IMG/VR virus record: IMGVR_UViG_3300009026_000007
Coordinates: 24,520 to 88,519 of that record
DNA from: a virus
Length of the DNA stretch: 64,000 bases
Strand: one strand, 5' to 3'
Part shown: piece after piece, positions 10,292-61,059 of the stretch
How the letters are laid out: each line of letters starts with the position of its first letter
Position numbering within the stretch: the stretch's first letter is position 1
The notes under the pieces: model-generated
Databases searched by the model: none
What the model was told of the DNA's origin: nothing
What the model saw: the letters and a program-made list of their open reading frames with translations, nothing else
Made by a program: the position numbers and the translations under genes

Positions 10292-10356
10292 AATTACTTA
10301 TGCCGGTTGCCTACAGAGGCCGTCGGTCGTGATTTCTGATTATTTGGAGTTGGGTC

Positions 10357-10920
10357 ATGAATGAAGTGAAGCGGTATGACGAATATGAGTGCGGCGTGCG
10401 TGAATGTGCAGAATATGGCGAGTACGTTAAATCAGAAGACTTCGACCGGGTAACCGCCGAGCGTGACGCGGCGCTGGGGCGCGAGGATGCGTTGACCTTT
10501 GCATGTAACTCGTGCGCCCTAGAGGTAACCCAAATCAAAGAAAGCATGGCCTATCGCGGAAGCCTGCTATGCCGAGTTCAAGCTGAGCGTGACGCCCTGC
10601 AACAGCACCTGACCGCTGCGGATGAGCGGGCGGATGTGCTGGAGGGGTTGTTGCGTGAGGTTCAGAAGTCCGCGCGCAAGCAAGACTGGGCAAGTGGCTA
10701 TCCGACACTGTTCGCAAGTGTTGATGCCGCACTCAAGCCAGCAGAGGCCAAGCTGTGCAAGACCTGCAACGGTACGGGCATTGTGAGTGAAGGCGCCATG
10801 TACTGCTCTTCTGGCGGAATCCCTTTTGAGTGCGGCCCCATTGAGTGCGTGAAGGACTGCCCGGAGTGCACAAAACCATGGCCCAACTCCCCGCCTACTG
10901 CCAGTGCCTACTGGCAGTAG
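10357..10920 (+). CDS. Ead/Ea22-like coiled-coil protein with C-terminal CxxC motifs
   Basis: GEYVKxEDF...AERDAAL...LTAADERADVLEGLL; CKTCNGTG...DCPEC. Confidence 0.55.
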   Translation: MNEVKRYDEYECGVRECAEYGEYVKSEDFDRVTAERDAALGREDALTFACNSCALEVTQIKESMAYRGSLLCRVQAERDALQQHLTAADERADVLEGLLREVQKSARKQDWASGYPTLFASVDAALKPAEAKLCKTCNGTGIVSEGAMYCSSGGIPFECGPIECVKDCPECTKPWPNSPPTASAYWQ

Positions 10921-10946
10921 GCACAACTGATTTGCTGAGGTGATTT

Positions 10947-11093
10947 ATGAATAAGCCGGTCTGGTATTACGAGAGGGGGGCGCTTCGCGTCCTAATCGGA
11001 AATCTTGAGGTTATATGCCCCGATATAGGTCTGCCTCTAGTCAGGATGGTCGCCCTGACTATCCAGCACTGCAAGGAGTCGAAACTGTTATGA
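10947..11093 (+). CDS. small hypothetical protein (48 aa)
   Basis: GAGGTG SD, ATGA overlap with the next gene. Confidence 0.5.
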   Translation: MNKPVWYYERGALRVLIGNLEVICPDIGLPLVRMVALTIQHCKESKLL

Positions 11094-11517
11094 CCACCAA
11101 CCAAACGATTGACGGCGTGCCGCGTGAGGCATTCAAGTGGGCGTTAGAGCAGCTTGAGGAAGACGGGAACAAAGGCTGCGGCTACTTCGACAGTCTGCGC
11201 GCCCTGCTGGATTCGCCTGCCGTGCATCCTGATTTGGGCTCTAGTCCAGCCAACCACATGGCATGGCTACTGGACAAGGTAGTTAACCCTGGCGAATACC
11301 CGGTCCATGTTCTGCATGAGCAGATACGCTCAACATTGGAAGTTCTCGGTAAGCCAGCCGCCCAGCCCCAGGGCGAGCCGGTAGAACTGGCGGTGCTGCC
11401 AGAAAGAGCTGATCACAAAAGCGACAATGCCCCAACCCGGCATTCTGCGAAGATGAAGATTTCGCACATGGCTGGAACGCCTGCCTCGACGAAGTAAAGA
11501 GGCTGAATACCAAGTAA
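11090..11517 (+). pseudogene. Prophage-type hypothetical (MTTNQTIDGVPRE...GWNACLDEVKRLN) with an apparent frameshift near 11410-11430
   Basis: The conserved-looking C-terminus lies in another frame that ends at TAA 11515-11517. Confidence 0.55.
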
Positions 11518-19833: not shown

Positions 19834-20312
19834 TCTAAGCAGGCTGCATAATGCCCATCAAATGATGGGCATAAGTGTATCAACAAGATTAATAGATTGG
19901 GAAATAAATCATCTTCTGGTTAATAGTATAATTTCCTATGGAAGCCTTATAGAATCTAGTCAAAATGACTACAGGGAGTAAACTGATTAGTGTACTTTTA
20001 GGTGATGTGAGAGTGGGTGAAGATATGTGTTATGGCTAAGCTCACACACTTTTCCCTCCAATCTTCACCCACAAACTGCCCCAACACAATCATTTAGTGC
20101 ACTAAACATTAGCTTCTTTACACTCTAGCTACAAATAATCCTGTACAACACACTGAAAGTGTGAACTCTGAACACGATAGGTTTTCTCTACTTGTAGCCA
20201 AAGGTCTGATAGAAATCTTTGTTAGGGAATGTTGGAAATAAATGGAGACAGGCGTACTGAAAGTGTTATACTAACCACACAGAACGAAACACTACTTACA
20301 GGAAGAATGATC

Positions 20313-20531
20313 ATGGCTAACATGAAGACAGTAAACCAGTACATCAAGACTAACTTCCCACAATGGGATATCAAAGCTTATCGTGGTGACTGCTACGTCT
20401 ACTTTGAGTTTGGTGCTCATGAGATTGATATCCTATATGTACACCCTGTCAGCACAGACACCAACACACTGACTGACCTTGTGTTGGAACAGATTCAAGA
20501 CTACTTAATCTCTAATGATATGGTTGTCTAA
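20313..20531 (+). CDS. hypothetical protein
   Basis: AGGA SD, ATG 20313. Confidence 0.6.
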   Translation: MANMKTVNQYIKTNFPQWDIKAYRGDCYVYFEFGAHEIDILYVHPVSTDTNTLTDLVLEQIQDYLISNDMVV

Positions 20532-20600
20532 GATAGGCTAGTATCAGACCATCTGAGCAACGTTAGCTGTCTACCCATACACGCTGTTAGCTTGACCAAT

Positions 20601-20625
20601 AGAGCCCCTTAAGTGGGGCTTTTCT
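20601..20625 (+). terminator. Rho-independent terminator ending the rightward block
   Basis: AGCCCC-TTAAGT-GGGGCT-TTTCT. Confidence 0.7.
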
Positions 20626-20695
20626 GTGCCTGTTGTTTATCTAATCTTATTACCATTGACATATACTCCATCTTATGAGTTAGCCTATAAACTAC

Positions 20696-20723
20696 ATTAC
20701 GCATAATAGCCATTATGTTAAAT
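20696..20723 (+). other. dif: dif-like XerC/XerD recombination site
   Basis: ATTACGCATAA-TAGCCA-TTATGTTAAAT. The XerD arm is 11/11 and the XerC arm 8/11 identical to E. coli dif, with a 6-bp spacer. Confidence 0.85.
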
Positions 20724-21100
20724 GGCTGATCTAGATAGTGTTTAGATGGTGTTGTCAAGTGCATTATTTGATGAGGGTGTGGGCTAGACCATTGGTCAGA
20801 GTATTGTCAGATATTTTGATATTATAGTTGACATATTAGGGTGGGTATCTTAGAGTGTTAAACCCCTCAGATACCGAGACAGTATTATTTGAAACTAGCT
20901 TTTAGCCTACACCCCTCACAAATAAAGGCTTTCACATATTTCCAGACATAAAAATAGACACCTACTAATACAAGCTAAGTGTCTTTCTAGAGGGTTGGGG
21001 AATTATTATACCCAGAACTCACTCTTATATTATATATGTCTATTTGCTCTGTCACAGAATACGTGGCTTACAGACACTTTAGGGGATTTTCAAAATCCCT

Positions 21101-21742
21101 TTAGCTCATTTCTATATCCTCCCCATATTCGTAACTGAGACCAATAGCCACAGCCCATGCACTGTATCTACCTTTCCAGTAAAGCTTTGGGTGTACTTTA
21201 ATCAAAGACTTCCATGCGCCGCCTAAGTCAAACCTGTCATGGAGCAATTTGACAAGTCCTTTTTCTTCAAGGGATTTAAATACTCTACCTGCATGTTTCT
21301 TACTCTTAAGCTTTAGTGCATCTTTGAAGGATTCTTGGTCCACCACAGAGTAGTTCCAAACAATAACATTCTCACACAGATATTTGAACAGCTTAGTTTC
21401 AGTTAGAGTGCAGTCTTCATTCCACAAGAAGTCCAGAAGGAATCCATCATCACCTTTACGATGTCTAGTCTTATCCGAACACAGCTTGTGTAACTCAGGT
21501 AAATCTTTAGCTGTATCCGGATGATTCTTTGGGATTGAATACCCTTGCGTATAAAAGTCTCTAAACGTTGTATTATTGTTCCACTCATAATCCCATATTT
21601 CTATGTATTCATCTAGGGTAACTTTCTTATATATTTCACCTGTGTGTTTATCAGTTACGAATAGAAAATCCCCATCTCTGATATAGAGTATGGGGTAATT
21701 TGGTATATCGTCTGTTATAAATTCTATCTTGTATCTGGTCAC
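21101..21742 (-). CDS. RepL-like winged-helix DNA-binding/replication protein
   Basis: C-terminal HTH (KKHAGRVFKSLEEKGLV) followed by KVHPKLYWKG, resembling the RepL NP..F/WkG motif. Confidence 0.55.
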   Translation of the reverse strand: MTRYKIEFITDDIPNYPILYIRDGDFLFVTDKHTGEIYKKVTLDEYIEIWDYEWNNNTTFRDFYTQGYSIPKNHPDTAKDLPELHKLCSDKTRHRKGDDGFLLDFLWNEDCTLTETKLFKYLCENVIVWNYSVVDQESFKDALKLKSKKHAGRVFKSLEEKGLVKLLHDRFDLGGAWKSLIKVHPKLYWKGRYSAWAVAIGLSYEYGEDIEMS

Positions 21743-22810: not shown

Positions 22811-23536
22811 TCACATACTTTTTGTAACGTCAAATAACCTAAACTTTTCAATTACTCGGTACTCCATATTTTCATGGTACCTTTCAATTAGGACTTTGAC
22901 ACATTCAATTTTCCAATCTCGGTAGATGGTAAAAGCTTCTTCTGGCGTTTCACAAGCTTTCGCTCTAACCTTATCCGTCAATTTGTAATTAATCCTAGGA
23001 ATATATTTATTACAATGTTCGTATATTCCTAGAAAATTCATTCCACGTTGCTTTGTATTTACATTTAGAAAAGTGTTGATATCTTTGTGGACAAAGCAAC
23101 AAGTACTGGGCGAATAAGATTTAATATCTAATGAAAGAATGTCTTTGTCTAGGTGGTAATCTTTTTCTTTGAACCCTTTCTGCCACTGACACCATTCAGC
23201 AAATTCCTGAAAATTGTGCCATTGTTCATCTACTGAACATCCAATGTAGGTTGGGAATTTTCCCTGGTATGCTGCTGAATAACACCTTTCCAGCATACCA
23301 GTCCACAGCCTATATTCTTTAGTATGTTTTTGATTATCGGATACTTTGTGTGGGCCTGCGCCTACAAAACCAACACCATACACAGATGGATTGAACAAAT
23401 CCTTAACTGAACCTGTTTTTATATTACCGTTTGAGGCAATACATTCATAACCTGTCTCAATAAAACGAATATAAGACCTTTTACCCTTTTCTTTCGAAAT
23501 TATTACAAATTCCTGACCTGCATTATTATAAGGCAT
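22811..23536 (-). CDS. HNH-type homing endonuclease (His-Me finger)
   Basis: WxxMLERCY...YIGCSV..QWHNFQEFAEW...HLDKDIL...YSPSTCCFV. Confidence 0.8.
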   Translation of the reverse strand: MPYNNAGQEFVIISKEKGKRSYIRFIETGYECIASNGNIKTGSVKDLFNPSVYGVGFVGAGPHKVSDNQKHTKEYRLWTGMLERCYSAAYQGKFPTYIGCSVDEQWHNFQEFAEWCQWQKGFKEKDYHLDKDILSLDIKSYSPSTCCFVHKDINTFLNVNTKQRGMNFLGIYEHCNKYIPRINYKLTDKVRAKACETPEEAFTIYRDWKIECVKVLIERYHENMEYRVIEKFRLFDVTKSM

Positions 23537-23774
23537 ATGGTGTACACCTCCGACATCCACACGATAAACCCATAGGCTTCATACGGTCTTCTGGAGATAG
23601 ATTCTCCATGCTCTCCCACAGACACTTAGTTTCACGAGTAATATCATACTTAGGTTGTTCTTGACTCAACCACCCAAATCTTTTATACCGTGCAATACTT
23701 TCTTCCGTCTCTTTGCGAAGTTGTTTTAGTTCATCTTCTACGTTCTGCATACGATCTTCTAGTGTAATGTTCAT
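23526..23774 (-). CDS. hypothetical protein
   Basis: C-terminal SCGCRRC. Confidence 0.6.
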   Translation of the reverse strand: MNITLEDRMQNVEDELKQLRKETEESIARYKRFGWLSQEQPKYDITRETKCLWESMENLSPEDRMKPMGLSCGCRRCTPYAL

Positions 23775-30181: not shown

Positions 30182-30531
30182 TCTACTTCCCTCTTGCTAA
30201 CTGAAATAAATGCAAAACCTTCTGTTAAATAACAATCTGAATCTTTAAACTCCTCAGCTTTTTCTTCTGTATTAAATACACCTAGGATATCTGTACCACC
30301 TGAATCAAAACCTTGCACAATCCATACATAACTCATTGCCAATCCCCTTGAGCGTATTCCAAGTCTACTTCTTGATTCCAGAAAGGATCTACATCAAAAT
30401 TGTGCTCATGTATACACAAAAAATCTTCGTAGTCATCACCAAGCTCATAAACCAAATCATTCAAATTCATTTTAGTCTCCTTTGTGTTAATCTGTCGCTA
30501 TTGTAAGCCGACAGATTGTTTAAGTCAACAA

Positions 30532-31323
30532 CTATTTTACAATTACTTCGTCAGCATCGTCTACTTTGACTGGTTTTGGTTTAGATTTCCGGGCTAACTT
30601 CTTAGCAGCTTCGTCTTTTTGTTTGTCGTATGCAATTAGAGCTTTTGTCACAGCTTGTTCAACGATTTCATCAATTGTAGGCATGTCGTCAAAGCTTTCT
30701 TCTTCCTCAAGAGCAGCTAGGCGTTGATTCTGGGGGCAGTCAGATGATCCGCAATCACAAGGTTGTGACTTTTGGTACTCATAGAAGTTTTCCATTCGCC
30801 GCTCAAGTTCTTTAGCGCCAAACCAGAACTCCTTGCCTTCATTACAGAGTTCTAACTCACGATCATCCAGTAGGCCACTATAGGTTGAGATAATTTCCTC
30901 TTCCATTTGTTTCAAACCAAACTCAGTCTGACTCTTGATATCAGGATTTTTACCAATTGCACCCCACCATGCGCAATGTGCCATAAACTGAATGTGTGGT
31001 GCCCAACCATGCTGTTTACAAGCCAAAAAGATACCTGTTGCAGCGCTCATGCAGTCATACTCAATGAAACCTACAACATTCGCTTCTGATTCTTGAACTG
31101 CGTTTACGATCATCCGTTCCGATGCAACAGATCCACCTCTTGAATTTATACGGATCAAAATTTCGTCTTGTGAACCTGAGCTACGAAGGATATTGCACAA
31201 GTCTACATAGTTTTCTGGTTCGGTAATTGGACCTGTCAAATAGTAAGTATGCTGTGAGCCTCGAACCTCTGTTGTAAAGATGTTCTTAGGTGAGAACATT
31301 GGGATAAAACTTTCTTCACTCAT
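30532..31323 (-). CDS. clpP: ClpP-like serine protease
   Basis: RINSRGG, CMSAATGIF, FMAH; acidic/basic C-terminal extension. Confidence 0.85.
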   Translation of the reverse strand: MSEESFIPMFSPKNIFTTEVRGSQHTYYLTGPITEPENYVDLCNILRSSGSQDEILIRINSRGGSVASERMIVNAVQESEANVVGFIEYDCMSAATGIFLACKQHGWAPHIQFMAHCAWWGAIGKNPDIKSQTEFGLKQMEEEIISTYSGLLDDRELELCNEGKEFWFGAKELERRMENFYEYQKSQPCDCGSSDCPQNQRLAALEEEESFDDMPTIDEIVEQAVTKALIAYDKQKDEAAKKLARKSKPKPVKVDDADEVIVK

Positions 31324-31324
31324 A

Positions 31325-32065
31325 TTATTTATTCTCCCGTTCTTTAGCTTTAACCATGGCTTTACAAAGGCCCGACCTAACAATATCGTTACTGTCTGCT
31401 TTGATCACTTTAATATGTTTGGTGAGTTCAGGGTTATTTTCAACAAACCCCTCTAGCCAATCAATTGCATTCAATCCACGAATATCGCTCTGGTTGGGGT
31501 CTCCGATGACTATGAGTTTTGAGCCAGTCTCCATTCGAGTAAGTAGTGTGTAAAGCTCATCTGGATGCAAGCTTTGTCCTTCATCGATAATCATCACCCC
31601 TTCAACACTACGACCACGGCTATATTCCGGGGCCAGAAGCTCAATTGAACCATTTGCAAGGCAGTTCTCGTAGTAACTTTTACCGTAACGCTTCCACAGC
31701 ACCTCCAGAAGAGGCATTAAGTACGGTTCAAACTTTTGCTGAAGTGTAGAAGGAAGCATACCAAGGCTACGACCCATAGGAATTACAGCCCGAGTTAATG
31801 TAATCTTGTCATAAACACCTTTCTTCAACCAATCAGCAGCTTCACTCATGGTCAGATAGCTTTTACCTACGCCTGCGGGAGCTGAGAAGACAACAACATC
31901 AAACTCCTTAAGCGCGTTTAAGAACAACTTCTGTACATCTGTCTTTGCAGTTACTGGAACAGCAAGATAACTTTCATCTTGAAACTTACTCTTAATAACA
32001 CGACCAACTTCTGATTTCTTTTCCCAGCGTTGTTGTACAGTTTGTTCCAAGCTGCGCTTAGCCAT
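31325..32065 (-). CDS. phoH: PhoH-family ATPase
   Basis: APAGVGKS, GMLP, RGRS, IIDEGQ, LLTR, GDPNQSD, DIVRS. Confidence 0.93.
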   Translation of the reverse strand: MAKRSLEQTVQQRWEKKSEVGRVIKSKFQDESYLAVPVTAKTDVQKLFLNALKEFDVVVFSAPAGVGKSYLTMSEAADWLKKGVYDKITLTRAVIPMGRSLGMLPSTLQQKFEPYLMPLLEVLWKRYGKSYYENCLANGSIELLAPEYSRGRSVEGVMIIDEGQSLHPDELYTLLTRMETGSKLIVIGDPNQSDIRGLNAIDWLEGFVENNPELTKHIKVIKADSNDIVRSGLCKAMVKAKERENK

Positions 32066-35034: not shown

Positions 35035-35200
35035 TTTCTATATCTCCTTCTGTATTTGATATAAGAATCATAGCATAGTGATCGATAGATTGCAAGGGTA
35101 TTTTTGAGTAATTTATGTGTGGTTAGATTTTATTGGAATAGGTGGTTGACATGGGGATATTTTAGGAGTAGTCTTGTTGGTGTGGATTAAAGCTACTTAA

Positions 35201-35470
35201 TTTGTCCTATAGTATGGGACATTTGAGGTCATATGTATAGGACAAAAGGTCTCTTTATATAGAATGATTGAGATAGAAAGAAAATATAGATTTTAAAAGC
35301 TTTATAGGTCTTAACATCCTATACTTGACAAACAGAGAAGCGAAGCGTAAGATTGTAGTATTCAGCAAGCTTTTGATTTGAGAGTGCAGGGCTTTTGTTC
35401 TTTTATCATGCTTGGTGCAAGAACGAAGTGATAGAGAAAGAAACGAGTATGGGATCTTTTGTCCTATACT
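35201..35470. repeat. Six copies, in both orientations, of an iteron/operator-like motif (TG)TCC(T/C)ATAC(T)
   Basis: TTTGTCCTATA 35201; AGTATGGGACA 35211; GTATAGGACAAAA 35235; CATCCTATACT 35315; AGTATGGGATC 35446; TTTTGTCCTATACT 35457. Confidence 0.75.
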
Positions 35471-35499
35471 AATGAGATAAATAACGTAGGAGATACAAA

Positions 35500-35625
35500 A
35501 TGAGTCTGATTATCCCTCGACCACTGCTTTCTTGGATTGATGAGAATCGTGGCGAGATGAGCCGACAATCCTTTATTCTGAAATGTATGTTCAAACTAAA
35601 GGAGATTCAAGACATGAATAAGTAA
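35500..35625 (+). CDS. ribbon-helix-helix (CopG/Arc-like) DNA-binding protein, 41 aa
   Basis: AGGAG SD; MSLIIPRPLLSWIDENRGEMSRQSFILKC fits the RHH pattern. Confidence 0.7.
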   Translation: MSLIIPRPLLSWIDENRGEMSRQSFILKCMFKLKEIQDMNK

Positions 35626-35684
35626 AAGCAAAGCTTCATAAAAACTATAGATTTACAAGACTAAATAACTAAAGGTGTACAAAT

Positions 35685-36167
35685 GTGAACACAGATGAAT
35701 TCTACAAGCTACCCAAGAGCCTAGCATTGGCAGATGGGTATATCAGCAAGAAGACAGGAGAAGCTGTAAAGCTGTCCGCAAGCAGTAAGATTATCTATGC
35801 TTACATGCTAAGTAAAAATGAGTTCTTTACTGAAACTCTGAAAGGTCAGCACTACGAAGCACAATCTACTATTGCTAAATGTTGTGGTGTGGAATACAAA
35901 GCAGCAGGAAAAATCCTAAGATCCTTTCTTGATCATAATATTATGGAAGGTAGAAAGTTGAGACCCGATTCTGGTCAATGGCGATGGTTTTATTACAAGG
36001 TGCATTCTGATTTAGTGTTGTGGGAAGGTAGTGTTGCAGACTTCAATATACTTGAGGAAGAAAAGCCTAAGTATTCGGAGAAAGTAGTGCCTAAAGCTAC
36101 GCAAACAAATAAACCATATCACCATCAACCCATTGATGATTGGGATGATTCACAACTACCTTTTTAG
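35685..36167 (+). CDS. winged-helix protein, RepA_N/replication-initiator-like, with an acidic SSB-like tail
   Basis: FYKLPKSL...LSASSKIIYAYM...QSTIAKCCGV; ends DDWDDSQLPF. Confidence 0.6.
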   Translation: MNTDEFYKLPKSLALADGYISKKTGEAVKLSASSKIIYAYMLSKNEFFTETLKGQHYEAQSTIAKCCGVEYKAAGKILRSFLDHNIMEGRKLRPDSGQWRWFYYKVHSDLVLWEGSVADFNILEEEKPKYSEKVVPKATQTNKPYHHQPIDDWDDSQLPF

Positions 36168-36175
36168 GATAAAAT

Positions 36176-36706
36176 ATGAAATTTGTAGAGTATATGAAAA
36201 TCAGAAATACCAACCCCAAGAAAAAGAATAGTCTTAGTACAGCCGAGGCAAACATTTTGGGAGTTGATATGAGTATCAGAGGCTGGATGACCAAAGATAC
36301 CAATCTAACAGACGATCAGGTAGAGAGGGCAGTTGACTTCGCACTTAAGTCTAAATTTATGAGGCAAGGTGTTAAAGATAACCTGCGTCCACTGTATATG
36401 AAACAACTTGACGGTATGGACTCACAGTGCGTGTATCTCATGGAAAATGAACTAGGTATGTTGAAAATTGGCATTAGTAATAATCCAATAAAACGTGCAA
36501 GGTCACTAAGCACAGGCAGTGGATTATCTGTAAATCTGCTTTGTTATTGGCAGATAGCTAATCCGGCAAGAAGTACAGAGGCAAAACTTCATAGACTATT
36601 CAATCAATTCAAAGTAAGTGGTGAATGGTTTAAGAGGGATAGTTTCGACAAAGAAGACATTGAATCAAACTTTAATTTTTCTTTTATTAGAAAAGATTTT
36701 GATTGA
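36176..36706 (+). CDS. GIY-YIG/T5orf172-family nuclease
   Basis: VYLM...KIGISNNPxKRxRxL...EAKLHRLF...GEWF. Confidence 0.85.
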   Translation: MKFVEYMKIRNTNPKKKNSLSTAEANILGVDMSIRGWMTKDTNLTDDQVERAVDFALKSKFMRQGVKDNLRPLYMKQLDGMDSQCVYLMENELGMLKIGISNNPIKRARSLSTGSGLSVNLLCYWQIANPARSTEAKLHRLFNQFKVSGEWFKRDSFDKEDIESNFNFSFIRKDFD

Positions 36707-46815: not shown

Positions 46816-48180
46816 ATGGCCCACAGTCTTCTCAGACTGAAAGAAAAGATTTGTAATACTCCTCACTTGATGCATCCTGCATCCTTTGAAATTGTTATTC
46901 AATATCTTAACGAACGAAATAGCGAAGACTTTAAACTGGATACAGCAGTTGAAGATAATCGTGAAAGCAATTCCCGATATTCTTTTAACAAAGATATTGG
47001 GGTTGCTGTTATGAACATTGATGGACCACTTAGTTATAAGCCAGTCACTATGATGGGTTTTGATTGTGGTGGTGCATCTTATCAGCAGATTAAAGAAGAC
47101 TTTACCTACCTTGTAGACAGTGGTGCAAAGACTATTGCATTTAGTGTCTCTAGTGGTGGTGGCGAAGCCTTCCAGATGATGCCAACTGCTAATTACATGC
47201 GTAAATTAGCTACTGAAAACGACGTTCGTATCATTACCTATGTAGATGGTCTATCCGCTTCAGCAGCCTATGGTTTGTCTGTAATTGCTGATGAATTGAT
47301 CATGGCTCCAAGCTCAGAAGTTGGTAGTGTTGGTGTTCTGGTTCGTTTAATGAACGATTCCAAAGCACTTGAGAAAGAGGGTTATGAACGCACCTTTATT
47401 TCTGCTGGTGACGATAAGATTCCATTTGACGCTGACGGTAGTTTCCGTAAAGAATTCTTGGAAGATATTCAAGGTAAAGTTGACACACTTTACGAAGAGT
47501 TTACTGGGTTTGTTGCAGAACATCGCAACTTATCAGTAGAAGCAGTGAAGTCCACACAGGCGCGTACCTTCTTACCAAAAGAAGCTATTGAGCTTGGACT
47601 AGCTGACCGTGTTATGACTCTTGAAGAGTTTTACACACATTTGGCTGATACAGCTCAAAAACAAGAAGGTGGTATGTTAAAAACCAAACTGTTTACCCAA
47701 TTTAATAAAACCGAGGAAACTCTAGAAATGACTCAACTTGCCGAACTGCAAGGCGAGCTTACCCAAGCTCATGAACAACTTCAGGCCGCTCAATTGAGTG
47801 TTTCTGATGTTACTTCTAAATTCGAAGCTGCTGCTTTGCTTCTTGCTGAAAAAGAAACCCTGCTCACTCAAGCACAAGAGCAAGTTGCTCAATTGGTTGC
47901 GGATAAAGAAGGTATGAAACTCACCAGTCGCAAGACTGCTCTTGCCGCTGTTATGTCCGCTGACAAAGTAGAGGCTGTGTCCAGTTCCCTCTCTAGCCTC
48001 GACGACAGCGCATTTGAAACCGTTCTGAGTGGTTTTGCTGCACAGAAACAAGCTCTTGAAGCATCCGATATGTTTACAGAACTTGGCGACCAAGGTACAG
48101 AAGTAGTTCCTGAAGCTAAAGCTTCTAAGTCTAAAGATGTTACCGAAGACCTTATCAAACAAAAACTAGGTTTGAAATAA
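46816..48180 (+). CDS. prohead protease (S49) with C-terminal scaffold
   Basis: SSGGG, SASAAY, VGSVGV; coiled-coil C-terminus. Confidence 0.9.
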   Translation: MAHSLLRLKEKICNTPHLMHPASFEIVIQYLNERNSEDFKLDTAVEDNRESNSRYSFNKDIGVAVMNIDGPLSYKPVTMMGFDCGGASYQQIKEDFTYLVDSGAKTIAFSVSSGGGEAFQMMPTANYMRKLATENDVRIITYVDGLSASAAYGLSVIADELIMAPSSEVGSVGVLVRLMNDSKALEKEGYERTFISAGDDKIPFDADGSFRKEFLEDIQGKVDTLYEEFTGFVAEHRNLSVEAVKSTQARTFLPKEAIELGLADRVMTLEEFYTHLADTAQKQEGGMLKTKLFTQFNKTEETLEMTQLAELQGELTQAHEQLQAAQLSVSDVTSKFEAAALLLAEKETLLTQAQEQVAQLVADKEGMKLTSRKTALAAVMSADKVEAVSSSLSSLDDSAFETVLSGFAAQKQALEASDMFTELGDQGTEVVPEAKASKSKDVTEDLIKQKLGLK

Positions 48181-60171: not shown

Positions 60172-61059
60172 ATGGACTTGGTTCAGAAGAATCGTGAGTA
60201 TAAGTTAATAATTGGTGATTCAAAAACCGCTGCTGCATTAGAGATTGATGCTCTTCAAGTTACATTTGATATTTCAAAGTCAATGAACAACAAGAAGAAA
60301 ACAAATTCTGCATCTATTGAAGTGTATAATCTTACTGATGATCAGCTTAAGATGTTGGACACAGATTATCCAGCTGCTGTGTTTTCAGTTGGATATGCAG
60401 ATACAGGTGGTGTTAAAAGGTTGTTTGCAGGACAAGTTAACAATGTAACCACAAGAAAATCTGGTGCTGATAGAGTGACTCAGATACAAATGGGGAGTGG
60501 TTACACTGAATTAAACCACGAAGTCTTGAGTCAAGTTGTCCCAGCTGGTAAGAACGTAGAAGCTGCTATTGAAGAGCTACGTAAGGCCATTGGTGCTGAT
60601 CGTGGAGTCTACAATGGTACTAACCTAAACAACCAAATCATCTACGGTTATCCCCTGTCCGGCACACCCAAAGAGATGCTAGATGAGTTAGCTGAAAAGT
60701 ATAACCTAAACTGGCAACTTGATGGTGAAGTTCTTTATGTAAACAATAATGATAGGGCTAATACTGAGAACTTTAATCAGGCTTATGTGATATCTGAGTT
60801 CACAGGTATGGTTGAGATTCCTTATCGCACTACTTTGAACAAAGACAGATCAAAGAAAGATAAGGTTAAGAAGCCAGGAATTCAATTCAAGATTCTGCTT
60901 AATCCAGCTATTACAGCTGGGGATATCATTAGACTTGAAGATACTCTTATCACAGGCTGGTATAAAGTAGAGGATATTAGGCACACTGGTAGTTGGCGCT
61001 CGAATCCATGGTACACAGAAATCAAGGCAACAACACTAGAGAAAGTAGACAGGAAGTAA
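60172..61059 (+). CDS. baseplate hub protein
   Basis: FDISKS...ASIEVYNL...VGY...LLNP. Confidence 0.75.
   Translation: MDLVQKNREYKLIIGDSKTAAALEIDALQVTFDISKSMNNKKKTNSASIEVYNLTDDQLKMLDTDYPAAVFSVGYADTGGVKRLFAGQVNNVTTRKSGADRVTQIQMGSGYTELNHEVLSQVVPAGKNVEAAIEELRKAIGADRGVYNGTNLNNQIIYGYPLSGTPKEMLDELAEKYNLNWQLDGEVLYVNNNDRANTENFNQAYVISEFTGMVEIPYRTTLNKDRSKKDKVKKPGIQFKILLNPAITAGDIIRLEDTLITGWYKVEDIRHTGSWRSNPWYTEIKATTLEKVDRK

What the first reader, a model, noticed from the sequence alone, without database searches (positions are those of the whole stretch)
20696..20723. XerC/XerD dif site in a large lytic-type myovirus, where transcription converges
Seen: ATTACGCATAA TAGCCA TTATGTTAAAT. The XerD arm is perfect and the XerC arm matches E. 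coli dif (GGTGCGCATAA TGTATA TTATGTTAAAT) at 8/11, with a phage-specific 6-bp spacer. It lies in the non-coding gap where the rightward (3.4-20.5 kb) and leftward (35-21.1 kb) blocks meet, as a chromosomal dif lies at the terminus. An AGCCATT/AATGGCT inverted repeat overlaps the XerD arm. Established: dif-like sites are used by plasmids (cer, psi, pdif) and by IMEX elements such as CTXphi and TLC. No integrase or resolvase is visible in this window. Inference: the phage borrows host XerCD to resolve circular dimers, or to persist as an episome or integrate. The divergent spacer favours self-resolution over integration at host dif.
Basis: partly seen in the sequence, partly recalled or inferred. 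Interest (0 to 1): 0.85.

Follow-up and report, generated by a model that had tools for sequence, protein, structure and literature searches.

The report
Host-type dif site in virulent myovirus
A large virulent-type phage with no recombinase of its own keeps an exact look-alike of its probable host's chromosome-untangling site (dif), as do several cultured relatives, so these phages probably borrow the host XerC/XerD enzymes to circularise or separate copies of their own DNA.

Summary
The 28-bp site is real, unique in the 88.5-kb phage genome and far beyond chance. Both 11-bp arms are identical to the chromosomal dif arms of many gammaproteobacteria, chiefly fluorescens-type Pseudomonas, which a GC-rich insert also marks as the likely host. 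Only the 6-bp spacer differs.

The site lies in a 569-bp gene-free gap where a rightward and a leftward block of small genes meet. Orthologous sites sit in the same gap, in the same orientation, in two divergent uncultured relatives. They also occur in more distant phages with a related capsid protein, including cultured phiPMW, SYP, Barba28A, H101 and rV5-like coliphages. Two closer relatives and 12 other relatives lack it.

No site-bearing genome encodes a tyrosine or serine recombinase. Spacers vary freely. No relative of the capsid gene was found in 401 Pseudomonas genomes, and no phage-host junction was seen.

I read it as a selected host XerCD site used on the phage's own DNA, for cyclisation through terminal repeats or for multimer resolution, not for integration. 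Function is inferred, not shown. I found no published description. This scan noted the same theme earlier in other phages.

The parts
20696..20723 (+). Complete 28-bp dif-type XerC/XerD core site
   Evidence: Read directly. Unique in the window and in the genome. Both arms are identical to those in 110 bacterial loci.
20696..20706 (+). XerC-binding arm ATTACGCATAA
   Evidence: 11/11 identical to the XerC arm of the dif-type site in 110 bacterial loci. 29 of the 80 listed titles are Pseudomonas and 8 are Alteromonas.
20707..20712 (+). Central 6-bp spacer TAGCCA
   Evidence: It differs at 4 of 6 positions from TGTATA, the spacer in 79 of 118 loci with these arms. None of the 118 has TAGCCA. Orthologues carry TGCCCA (L243) and TACCCA (G008).
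20713..20723 (+). XerD-binding arm TTATGTTAAAT
   Evidence: 11/11 in all 7 sites found through homology, not through the motif: L243, G008, phiPMW, SYP, JeffSchatz, Barba28A and H101.
20532..21100 (.). Gene-free gap where the rightward and leftward gene blocks converge. It is the candidate terminal-repeat or regulatory module that holds the site.
   Evidence: ORF maps. Homologous gaps hold the site in G002, G003, G004, G008, L243, phiPMW, SYP, JeffSchatz, Barba28A and H101.
20601..20630 (+). Intrinsic terminator closing the rightward block, upstream of the site
   Evidence: 8-bp G+C stem plus U run, -17.5 kcal/mol, z = -2.5. A hairpin with a different loop is kept in G001 (alignment A1).
20707..20728 (+). 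Inverted repeat (hairpin) over the spacer and XerD arm; probably incidental
   Evidence: -8.8 kcal/mol; 9 of 200 shuffles fold as well. Not conserved in orthologues.
20810..20866 (+). Conserved non-coding motif block on the XerD side (GATATTTTGATATTATAG, then TTGACA-17-TAGAGT, then GTTAAACCCC)
   Evidence: Conserved in G001 (A1). A like motif occurs in G002, G003, phiPMW and at the edge of SYP's end repeat (A3). Promoter-like match 10/12.
21026..21047 (+). Invariant 22-mer inside a non-coding block that is more conserved than the genes (about 20900-21100)
   Evidence: Identical in G001, L243, G007 and G008. It was used to find G007 and G008.
21101..21742 (-). Conserved 213-aa neighbour gene of unknown function, first gene of the leftward block
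   Evidence: 94% identity in G001, 73% in G007, 62% in G008, 56% in L243. No Pfam or PHROG family. It is kept in relatives that lack the site, so it is not tied to the site.
20229..20531 (+). Last gene of the rightward block (100 aa, unknown function, not conserved)
   Evidence: ORF list. No family. No homologue in G001, G002, G003, G007 or G008.

Best explanation
The 28-bp element is a functional recognition site for the host's XerC/XerD recombinases. Selection keeps it in the gene-free junction region of a lineage of recombinase-less, virulent-type myoviruses.

Its arms copy the host's chromosomal dif, so host XerC and XerD should bind it. Its spacer is private to each phage, so it can recombine productively only with another copy of itself, not with the host dif.

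I think it acts on the phage's own DNA by recombination between two directly repeated copies. There are two possible settings:
- **Cyclisation.** The two copies would sit in the short terminal repeats of the injected linear genome. Recombination would close the genome into a circle without RecA, as Cre/lox does for P1.
- **Resolution.** The copies would sit in successive units of circular dimers, multimers or catenanes made during early replication from an origin. Recombination would return them to monomers, as cer and psi do for plasmids.

**Shown:** the site, its match to host-type dif, its positional conservation, the absence of phage recombinases, and the absence of integrated copies in the genomes searched.

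**Inferred:** XerCD binding, any strand exchange, how XerD would be activated (FtsK or a phage factor), and which of the two settings applies.
For: 1. **Not chance.** The site is unique, and 0 of 100 shuffles match. The reversed-pattern control gave 0 hits in every genome.

2. **Both arms are exact host-type dif arms.** 110 bacterial loci carry the same arms, and 79 of the 118 parsed loci have spacer TGTATA.
- Independent host clue: a 54-59% G+C insert at window 10.3-11.5 kb.
- Of its 13 organism-named homologues, 11 are Pseudomonas spp. and 1 is a Pseudomonas phage.
- The nearest cultured phages infect Pseudomonas.
- The E. coli phage JeffSchatz carries arms equal to the E. coli dif arms as quoted in the finding. 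So the arms follow the host.

3. **Positional conservation in otherwise unalignable DNA.**
- L243 (neighbour protein 56% identical) has ACTACGCATAA TGCCCA TTATGTTAAAT, on the same side and in the same orientation.
- G008 has AGTTCGTATAA TACCCA TTATGTTAAAT about 350 bp from the shared 22-mer, as in the window.
- G002 and G003 (capsid protein 42-43% identical) have sites with the phrog_631 gene 1.8-4.4 kb to the right in the same orientation.
- Changes fall in the spacer and the XerC arm. The XerD arm is 11/11 in all 7 homology-first sites.

4. **Cultured relatives.** phiPMW (20942-20969) and SYP carry the site. So do 3 of 13 further phages with a related capsid protein. Each site lies in a 0.6-2.6 kb gene-poor gap, mostly convergent.

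5. **No recombinase in any of the 14 genomes.** PF00589 gave 0 of 2 and 0 of 12. PF00239 gave 0 of 14.

6. **Link to terminal repeats.**
- SYP's site lies inside the exact 351-bp repeat at both ends of its record.
- Vequintaviruses have published 458-459-bp terminal repeats (passages of PMC7471380 and PMC6563267).
- Record OR062943 opens at the homologous block with the site at 214-241.

7. **Purifying selection in rV5-like phages.** 113 of 115 matching records keep the 36 nt around the site at 99% identity or more, while the surrounding 501 bp differ by 1-10% in 119 of 120 records.

8. **The site-bearing variant recurs.** It appears at 99% identity or more in contigs of 3 other runs from different studies.

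9. **An initiator-type origin is plausible.** An initiator-like protein (DUF6945, phrog_8102) and iteron-like repeats lie at 35.2-36.2 kb.
Against: - **The site is dispensable.** G001 (no site within 3 mismatches in the whole genome) and G007 lack it. So do L244, DC31 and 10 of the 13 phages in the further panel. In all, 14 of the 21 homology-first relatives lack it.
- **Packaging argues against need.** Phages that package from concatemers do not obviously need monomer circles. Xer action on concatemers could even hurt packaging.
- **Activation is unexplained.** A bare dif core normally needs FtsK at the septum to complete exchange. No conserved accessory sequence was seen on the XerC side. 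No XafT-like DUF3653 protein was found (0 of 5 genomes).
- **Physical ends of this phage are unknown.**
  - The IMG/VR 'terminal repeats' of its relatives are 77-127-bp assembly overlaps.
  - G000's contig ends fall inside structural genes.
  - Only one copy of the site is seen in records MT884009 and OR062943.
  - SYP's 351-bp repeat could be an assembly overlap.
- **Weaker XerC arms elsewhere.** phiPMW, SYP, Barba28A and H101 have non-canonical XerC cores (CCTATAA or CCCATAA).
- **No biochemical or genetic data exist.**
Confidence: 0.5

Rival explanations
1. Docking site without recombination. Host XerD, with XerC, binds the site but is not meant to exchange strands. Binding could stop or park FtsK, tether or mark the phage DNA ends or junction, insulate the two converging transcription units, or regulate the neighbouring conserved promoter-like block.
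For: - The XerD arm is invariant (7 of 7 homology-first sites), while the XerC arm is loose (CCTATAA, CCCATAA, CGTATAA).
- The site sits beside conserved non-coding motifs and a promoter-like element.
- No FtsK-independent activator was found.
Against: - The full two-arm, 6-bp-spacer geometry is kept in every case. So is the final A of the spacer (13 of 13 sites). Binding alone would not need this.
- Both arms track host dif.
- In rV5-like phages the spacer itself is invariant.
- No such binding-only role of XerCD is known to me in gammaproteobacteria.
Confidence: 0.18
2. IMEX-type attachment site. The phage, or a fraction of infections, integrates into the host chromosome at dif through host XerCD, as CTXphi, VGJphi and TLCphi do. 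This would give a hidden lysogenic or carrier state.
For: - dif-like attP sites with perfect arms and odd spacers are common on small viral contigs: 119 or more hits, 58 different spacers among the 119 parsed.
- Known IMEX need only partial spacer homology (established knowledge).
- The phage has no integrase.
Against: - 0 of 401 sampled Pseudomonas genomes have a capsid homologue at E <= 1e-20. The same query finds G002, G003 and G007 at 1e-87 to 1e-125.
- Spacer bases next to either cleavage point match the host TGTATA at only 1 of 3 on each side. They are not conserved among related phages.
- No joints or loose ends appear at the site in contigs of 4 runs (contigs only, so weak).
- phiPMW and SYP are described as virulent or integrase-free (passages of PMC5587285 and PMC10580904).
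- An 88-kb myovirus with its own replication genes and no repressor found is unlike any known IMEX.
Confidence: 0.07
3. Module-exchange hot spot. Xer-mediated recombination between co-infecting related phages with compatible spacers swaps the two gene blocks that meet at the site, in the manner proposed for pdif modules of Acinetobacter plasmids.
For: - The site lies at the border of two highly mosaic blocks of small genes.
- G000 and G001 lose homology just left of the gap, and the 150 bp around the site are replaced in G001.
- The three closest site-bearing phages share the spacer pattern T-N-N-C-C-A.
Against: - There is only one site per genome, whereas pdif modules need pairs.
- Spacers differ at 1-2 positions even among the three close relatives. 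That blocks complete exchange.
- Mosaicism is equally strong along the whole early region and is usual for such regions.
- The benefit would be to the population, not to the individual genome.
Confidence: 0.08
4. No present function. The site is a relic of captured host DNA, or a passenger of some other conserved element: a small ORF on the opposite strand, a promoter or a packaging signal.
For: - The site is missing in G001 and G007 without visible replacement.
- An opposite-strand ORF overlaps it in the window (51 aa) and in L243 (61 aa).
- The phiPMW authors annotated the reverse strand of their site as a weak 'putative phage specific promoter'.
Against: - The two ORFs resemble each other only over the residues encoded by the 28-mer itself (10 of 20 identical, nothing outside). 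No ORF of 50 aa or more overlaps the site in G008.
- The phiPMW motif was 9 weak MEME hits that the authors themselves doubted.
- A relic would not keep 21-22 of 22 arm bases across lineages whose capsid proteins are 42% identical, while the flanks are saturated.
- A relic would not stay invariant in 113 of 115 rV5-like records.
Confidence: 0.1

Closest known systems
Chromosomal dif with XerC/XerD and FtsK (chromosome dimer resolution in gammaproteobacteria)
   Same: - The same 11 + 6 + 11 layout.
- Both arms are identical to the dif-type site of many Pseudomonas, Alteromonas and other gammaproteobacterial genomes.
- There is one copy per replicon.
- It lies where gene orientation converges.
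   Different: - It sits on an 88-kb virulent-type phage, not a chromosome.
- The spacer is TAGCCA instead of TGTATA.
- There is no evidence that it marks a replication terminus.
- Too few KOPS-like words exist to test polarity (4 in the genome).
- FtsK dependence is unknown.
Plasmid multimer-resolution sites cer (ColE1) and psi (pSC101), acted on by host XerCD
   Same: - A small replicon without its own recombinase borrows host XerCD through a dif-like core with a private spacer.
- It recombines only with itself.
   Different: - cer and psi depend on roughly 180 bp of accessory sequence on the XerC side that binds PepA with ArgR or ArcA (recalled).
- Here only 5 bases beyond the XerC arm are shared between the window and L243, so no accessory region is evident.
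- The replicon is a lytic phage.
IMEX attP sites (CTXphi, VGJphi, TLCphi, Xanthomonas and Ralstonia filamentous phages, gonococcal genetic island)
   Same: A virus with no integrase carries a dif-like site recognised by host XerCD.
   Different: - Known IMEX are small (under about 20 kb, mostly filamentous or tailless) and are found integrated at dif.
- This is a tailed myovirus of 88 kb.
- No integrated relatives were found in 401 Pseudomonas genomes.
- There is no conserved spacer homology to host dif.
P1 Cre/lox (cyclisation of terminally redundant phage DNA and plasmid-prophage dimer resolution)
   Same: - The proposed logic is the same. A site-specific recombination site present twice on the infecting linear DNA closes it into a circle, and later resolves dimers.
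- In SYP's record, and by published repeat length in rV5-like phages, the site lies in the short end repeat.
   Different: - The recombinase would be the host's, not phage-encoded.
- The phages are virulent, not plasmid prophages.
- For this window's phage, placement of the site in a terminal repeat is not shown.

Membership tests
dif-type XerC/XerD core site | An 11-bp XerC arm, a 6-bp (6-8) central region and an 11-bp XerD arm in this order | tested here: met
   The pattern search finds one site in the genome and none with the reversed control.
dif-type XerC/XerD core site | The arms match the dif of the organism whose XerCD must act on it | tested here: inconclusive
   The arms are 22/22 identical to 110 bacterial loci, many of them Pseudomonas. 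The host is inferred as Pseudomonas from the GC-rich insert and from relatives, but it is not known.
dif-type XerC/XerD core site | Bound and cleaved by XerC and XerD | not testable with these tools
   Needs gel-shift, cleavage or in vivo recombination assays.
Chromosomal dif (terminus function) | Lies at the replication terminus, with FtsK-orienting words pointing to it | tested here: inconclusive
   G000 holds only 4 GGGNAGGG words. The candidate origin is 14.5 kb away. GC skew follows gene direction.
Plasmid resolution sites cer / psi | Accessory sequences of about 180 bp on the XerC side that impose resolution selectivity | tested here: not met
   No conserved block adjoins the XerC arm. 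Only CTACA is shared between the window and L243. A palindrome about 200 bp upstream in SYP, G003 and phiPMW is not present in the window.
IMEX attP | Integrated copies next to host dif | tested here: not met
   0 of 401 sampled Pseudomonas genomes have a capsid homologue at E <= 1e-20. No joints were seen in contigs of 4 runs. Other host genera were not searched.
IMEX attP | Spacer homology with host dif on the side of the first strand exchange | tested here: not met
   TAG against TGT on the XerC side, and CCA against ATA on the XerD side: 1 of 3 each. This is not conserved among 13 phage sites.
pdif modules (Acinetobacter plasmids) | Pairs of sites, usually inverted, flanking a gene module | tested here: not met
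   There is a single site in G000. The next best 28-mers have 6 or more mismatches out of 22.
Cre/lox-like cyclisation site | The site is present in both terminal repeats of the packaged linear DNA | tested here: inconclusive
   - Met in the SYP record: two copies inside the exact 351-bp end repeat.
- Consistent with rV5-like phages.
- Unknown for G000, because its assembly gives no physical ends.

The most novel reading that the evidence does not exclude
Several lineages of strictly virulent myoviruses carry a copy of their host's dif inside their short terminal repeats. These lineages are the phiPMW/SYP group, this uncultured ~90-kb group, the Barba and H101 phages and the rV5-like coliphages. 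They would use the host's XerCD (with FtsK or an unknown phage activator) to close the injected linear genome into a circle within minutes of entry. This would be a host-supplied equivalent of P1 Cre/lox that makes circularisation independent of RecA and shields the ends from RecBCD. The private spacer would keep the phage from being trapped in the host chromosome.
Probability: 0.2. Interest if true: 0.85.

Novelty: new variant of a known kind. Interest (0 to 1): 0.64.

Why it matters
Exploitation of host XerCD is textbook for plasmids and for small integrating elements. It is not textbook for large virulent tailed phages, which are assumed to handle their DNA ends and concatemers with their own enzymes.

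A conserved, host-matched dif site in such phages would add a host dependency that nobody screens for. It bears on how these phages circularise or process their DNA, and it could explain some host-range limits.

It also gives a practical host-prediction mark for uncultured phages. Here the arms point to fluorescens-type Pseudomonas, in agreement with an independent clue.

The question is directly testable. Site-bearing phages are in culture (phiPMW, SYP, Barba phages, H101 and the BASEL rV5-like phages on E. coli K-12), and xerC, xerD and ftsK mutants exist.

Tried and rejected
**Searches and tests that led nowhere**
- Megablast of the 2-kb region against cultured phages found nothing.
- Rfam search of the gap gave 0 matches at E <= 1.
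- Pfam and PHROGs found no family for the two flanking genes or for 8 other nearby genes. The exceptions were an HNH endonuclease (22811-23560) and phrog_631. So a note on this genome (e1-6128238) that the 213-aa neighbour is RepL-like got no support from Pfam.
- A search for a XafT-like Xer activator (DUF3653) gave 0 of 5 genomes.
- KOPS polarity could not be tested, with only 4 words in G000 and 2 each in G002, G003 and G008.
- Physical ends could not be found. The IMG/VR end repeats are 123, 127, 127, 77 and 77 bp, which are k-mer overlaps. G000's ends lie inside structural genes.

**Reads**
- Only contigs were available.
- Three contigs stop at 20830-20859, and none of the 4 runs covers 20860-21021.
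- I first wondered about molecule ends. I reject that, because the stops coincide with entry into the block shared with G001-like phages (from about 20810). That would branch a de Bruijn graph.
- Absence of joints in contigs is weak evidence.

**Features I rejected**
- The hairpin over the XerD arm is not conserved.
- The opposite-strand small ORF is similar to L243's ORF only where the 28-mer encodes it.
- The phiPMW 'phage specific promoter' label is a weak MEME motif that its authors doubted. Its S1 Fig is a supplement that I could not see.
- The rV5-like records with '2 places' are not all true duplications. MT884009 and OR062943 have one copy of the site, and I29 has two copies 594 bp apart. 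So 'the site is in both end repeats' is only partly verified for that group.

**Not done**
- I did not determine the dif of the actual hosts of phiPMW, SYP, Barba28A or H101.

**Literature**
- Four full-text searches found only filamentous or tailless phages, or phage-encoded recombinases (I saw listings and abstract starts only).
- The phiPMW paper has 0 occurrences of 'Xer'.
- So I found no published description. The library lacks most subscription journals.
Full report
**1. The observation**

Window 20696-20723 (+) reads ATTACGCATAA TAGCCA TTATGTTAAAT.
- It is the only match in the window at up to 3 mismatches, and none of 100 shuffles gave a match.
- The window is bases 24520-88519 of an 88,519-base virus record, G000, rated complete.
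- A scan of the whole record found no second site. The next best 28-mers miss at least 6 of the 22 arm positions.
- From the genome's 39.6% G+C, my arithmetic gives about 1e-5 expected chance matches to the 18 core bases and about 1e-7 to all 22.

The site lies in a 569-bp gap.
- The last rightward ORF is 20229-20531 and the first leftward ORF is 21101-21742.
- The rightward block ends in a strong terminator at 20601-20630.
It is not kept in orthologous sites.

The phage is a myovirus with its own primase/helicase, terminase, portal, sheath and baseplate genes. Its capsid protein is at most 41% identical to any cultured phage. The nearest are Pseudomonas phages SYP and phiPMW.

**2. The arms are a host dif, and they point to the host**

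A scan of one genome per bacterial species for the two arms with any spacer returned 110 loci.
- After parsing these together with 8 viral loci, 79 of 118 have the spacer TGTATA. None has TAGCCA.
- Of the 80 titles listed, 29 are Pseudomonas, largely fluorescens, mandelii and syringae-type species. Another 8 are Alteromonas.
- So both arms are 11/11 copies of a natural chromosomal dif. Only the spacer is foreign, with 2 of 6 positions shared.

An independent host clue agrees.
- A 1.2-kb insert at window 10.3-11.5 kb has 54-59% G+C in a 39% genome.
- Its first ORF has 13 organism-named homologues among the best 120. Eleven are Pseudomonas spp., one is a Pseudomonas phage and one is an uncultured phage.
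- Partial identity reaches 95% to a Pseudomonas rhodesiae protein.

The E. coli phage JeffSchatz carries arms equal to the E. coli dif arms as quoted in the finding, again with a foreign spacer. Host-matched arms are what one expects if the ligand is host XerC/XerD rather than a phage protein.

**3. Conservation in relatives**

The neighbour protein (213 aa) found one IMG/VR relative and three metagenome fragments.
- **G001** (94% identity in that protein, but only about 30 kb of 88 kb alignable). It keeps both flanks of the gap. About 150 bp around the site are replaced by unrelated sequence. Its whole genome has no site within 3 mismatches.
- **L243** (56%). It has ACTACGCATAA TGCCCA TTATGTTAAAT on the same side of the gene, in the same orientation. 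The site is an island of identity in otherwise unalignable DNA.
- **L244** (50%). It has none within 6 mismatches.
- **L242.** It is too short to tell.

An invariant 22-mer in the gap (21026-21047) found two more relatives.
- **G008** has AGTTCGTATAA TACCCA TTATGTTAAAT about 350 bp from the 22-mer, as in the window.
- **G007** has none.

Motif scans of IMG/VR then found sites in two complete phages whose capsid proteins are 42-43% identical to G000's (G002, G003), and in one at 29% (G004).
- In G002 and G003 the phrog_631 gene lies 1.8-4.4 kb to the right of the site in the same orientation as in the window. So these sites are positional orthologues.
- Two large phages with unrelated capsid proteins (G005, G006) also carry sites.

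**4. Cultured phages**

- **phiPMW** has GTGTCCTATAA TCTGCA TTATGTTAAAT at 20942-20969. It lies in a roughly 1.5-kb gene-poor stretch between rightward and leftward genes.
- **SYP** has GTTACCCATAA CGTACA TTATGTTAAAT at 134-161 and again at 106956-106983. Both copies are inside the exact 351-bp repeat at the two ends of its record.
- **A panel of 13 further phages** with a related capsid protein gave 3 with a site: JeffSchatz, Rheinheimera phage Barba28A and Pseudoalteromonas phage H101.
- **The 10 without a site** (within 2 mismatches) were phiK7A1, vB_PseuGesM_254, Boevelstad, PHB09, VCM, P3_CHA, PaGz-1, phiEa21-4, Andreotti and ICP1. Limnohabitans phage DC31 also has none.

Counting only the genomes reached through homology, 7 of 21 carry a site. 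All 7 have a perfect XerD arm. The reversed-pattern control gave no hit in any genome.

The sites lie in gene-poor gaps of 0.6-2.6 kb, mostly where gene blocks converge.

The non-coding module is itself partly homologous across SYP, G002, G003 and phiPMW. One of its motifs recurs in the window at 20810-20866.

**5. What the site is not**

- No tyrosine or serine recombinase is encoded in any of the 14 phage genomes examined.
- No XafT-like activator was found.
- Integration is unlikely, for four reasons.
  - Spacers differ in nearly every phage and do not keep the host's bases next to either cleavage point.
  - None of 401 sampled Pseudomonas genomes holds a capsid homologue at E <= 1e-20, although the query finds distant phages at 1e-87 or better.
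  - Contigs of four other sequencing runs show no joint or loose end at the site.
  - The phiPMW and SYP papers describe no lysogeny. I read passages only.
- Three of those runs, from different studies, carry the site-bearing variant at 99% identity or more. So it is not an assembly chimera.
- The small opposite-strand ORF is not a conserved gene.

**6. How it most likely works**

A host-matched two-arm site with a private spacer, on a replicon with no recombinase, is the design of plasmid resolution sites. It can only recombine with itself. Two settings give two direct copies.

*First setting: the terminal repeats.*
- SYP's record has the site in both 351-bp end repeats.
- Vequintaviruses have published terminal repeats of 458-459 bp (passages of PMC7471380 and PMC6563267).
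- The roughly 460-bp block around their dif site is where several records are opened. One of them, OR062943, has the site at 214-241.
- Recombination between two such copies would excise a monomer circle from the injected linear DNA, as Cre/lox does for P1.

*Second setting: multimers.*
- Circular dimers or catenanes could arise in early replication from an initiator-type origin.
- An initiator-like protein (DUF6945, phrog_8102) and iteron-like repeats lie at 35.2-36.2 kb.

Selection on such sites is clear in the rV5-like group. 113 of 115 matching records keep the 36 bases around the site at 99% identity or more. The surrounding 501 bp differ by 1-10% in 119 of 120 records. By my arithmetic, about one in six would be unchanged at 5% divergence without selection. 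Shared ancestry inflates such counts.

**7. Weak points**

- The site is dispensable (G001, G007 and many relatives).
- The physical ends of this phage are unknown.
- A bare dif core normally needs FtsK.
- Xer action on concatemers could be harmful.
- Nothing biochemical is known.
- A docking-only role for XerD/XerC is the main rival.

**8. Known or new**

Four literature searches found dif or Xer use only in filamentous, tailless or microvirus-type phages, or as phage-encoded recombinases. The phiPMW paper does not mention Xer.

Earlier notes of this scan report the same theme in rV5-like, CR3-like and soil phages. I re-tested part of the rV5 claim and found it largely, but not fully, borne out.

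I class the finding as a new variant of a known kind: host-Xer exploitation by virulent tailed phages.

Noticed in passing
window 10300-11500: A 1.2-kb insert of 54-59% G+C sits in a 39% genome, with two ORFs (10357-10920 and 11015-11497) that have no Pfam family. Named homologues of the first ORF are almost all from fluorescens-type Pseudomonas, up to 95% identical over part of the length. This looks like recent capture from the host or its prophages, and it is a useful host marker.
   Followed up: partly
window 20900-21100: A non-coding block is conserved better than the neighbouring genes. It is nearly identical in G001, and the 22-mer 21026-21047 is invariant in G001, G007, G008 and L243. 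On the minus strand a promoter-like GTGACA-17-TAATAT is followed by a hairpin plus U run (about 20990-20950). This may be a small RNA of about 70 nt. There is no Rfam match.
   Followed up: partly
window 20810-20866; also L277 (SYP), L260 (G003), L258 (G002), L276 (phiPMW): The motif GATTTTGAnATTnTA ... GTTAAACCC on the XerD side of the site is shared across the whole clade. SYP's 351-bp end repeat stops just before it. A palindrome, GTGTTCCACGTGGAACA, lies about 200 bp on the XerC side in SYP, G003 and phiPMW but not in the window.
   Followed up: partly
L277 (SYP) 100-130 and 200-270; L260 (G003) just after the site: CATTGAATGAGAATCATT-type words directly follow the XerD arm in SYP and G003 and recur in SYP's end repeat. 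By my recollection they resemble Fur boxes.
   Followed up: no
phiPMW 20942-20969, Barba28A 30466-30493, H101 60689-60716: Three phages of different hosts (Pseudomonas putida, Rheinheimera, Pseudoalteromonas) share the same non-canonical XerC core CCTATAA. This hints at common descent of the phage sites, or at selection for weak XerC binding.
   Followed up: no
ON286975.1 (Escherichia phage I29) 104393-104420 and 104987-105014: Two identical copies of the rV5-type dif site lie 594 bp apart in one record. This may be a terminal repeat assembled in tandem, or a real duplication.
   Followed up: no
window 35200-36170: Iteron-like repeats TTTGTCCTATA(C/G)T occur in both orientations (35201, 35236, 35317, 35458). 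They are followed by a 41-aa ORF (phrog_31326) and a 160-aa protein that matches DUF6945 and a PHROG of replication initiators. All this lies at the point where gene blocks diverge, so it is a candidate origin.
   Followed up: partly
window 22811-23560 and 36176-36706: Free-standing homing-type endonuclease genes (HNH; T5orf172/MUG113) lie in the early regions. This fits the strong mosaicism of these blocks.
   Followed up: no
window 30532-31383: A ClpP-like ATP-dependent protease gene lies in the leftward early block. It is separate from the prohead protease at 46816-48180.
   Followed up: no
L003-L121 (IMG/VR loci): Among 119 viral loci with perfect dif cores, 58 different spacers occur. Many end in CCA or CA (TAACCA, GCACCA, CCTCCA, TGCCCA, TACCCA), like the window's TAGCCA. 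Most loci are small contigs that look like integrating elements.
   Followed up: no
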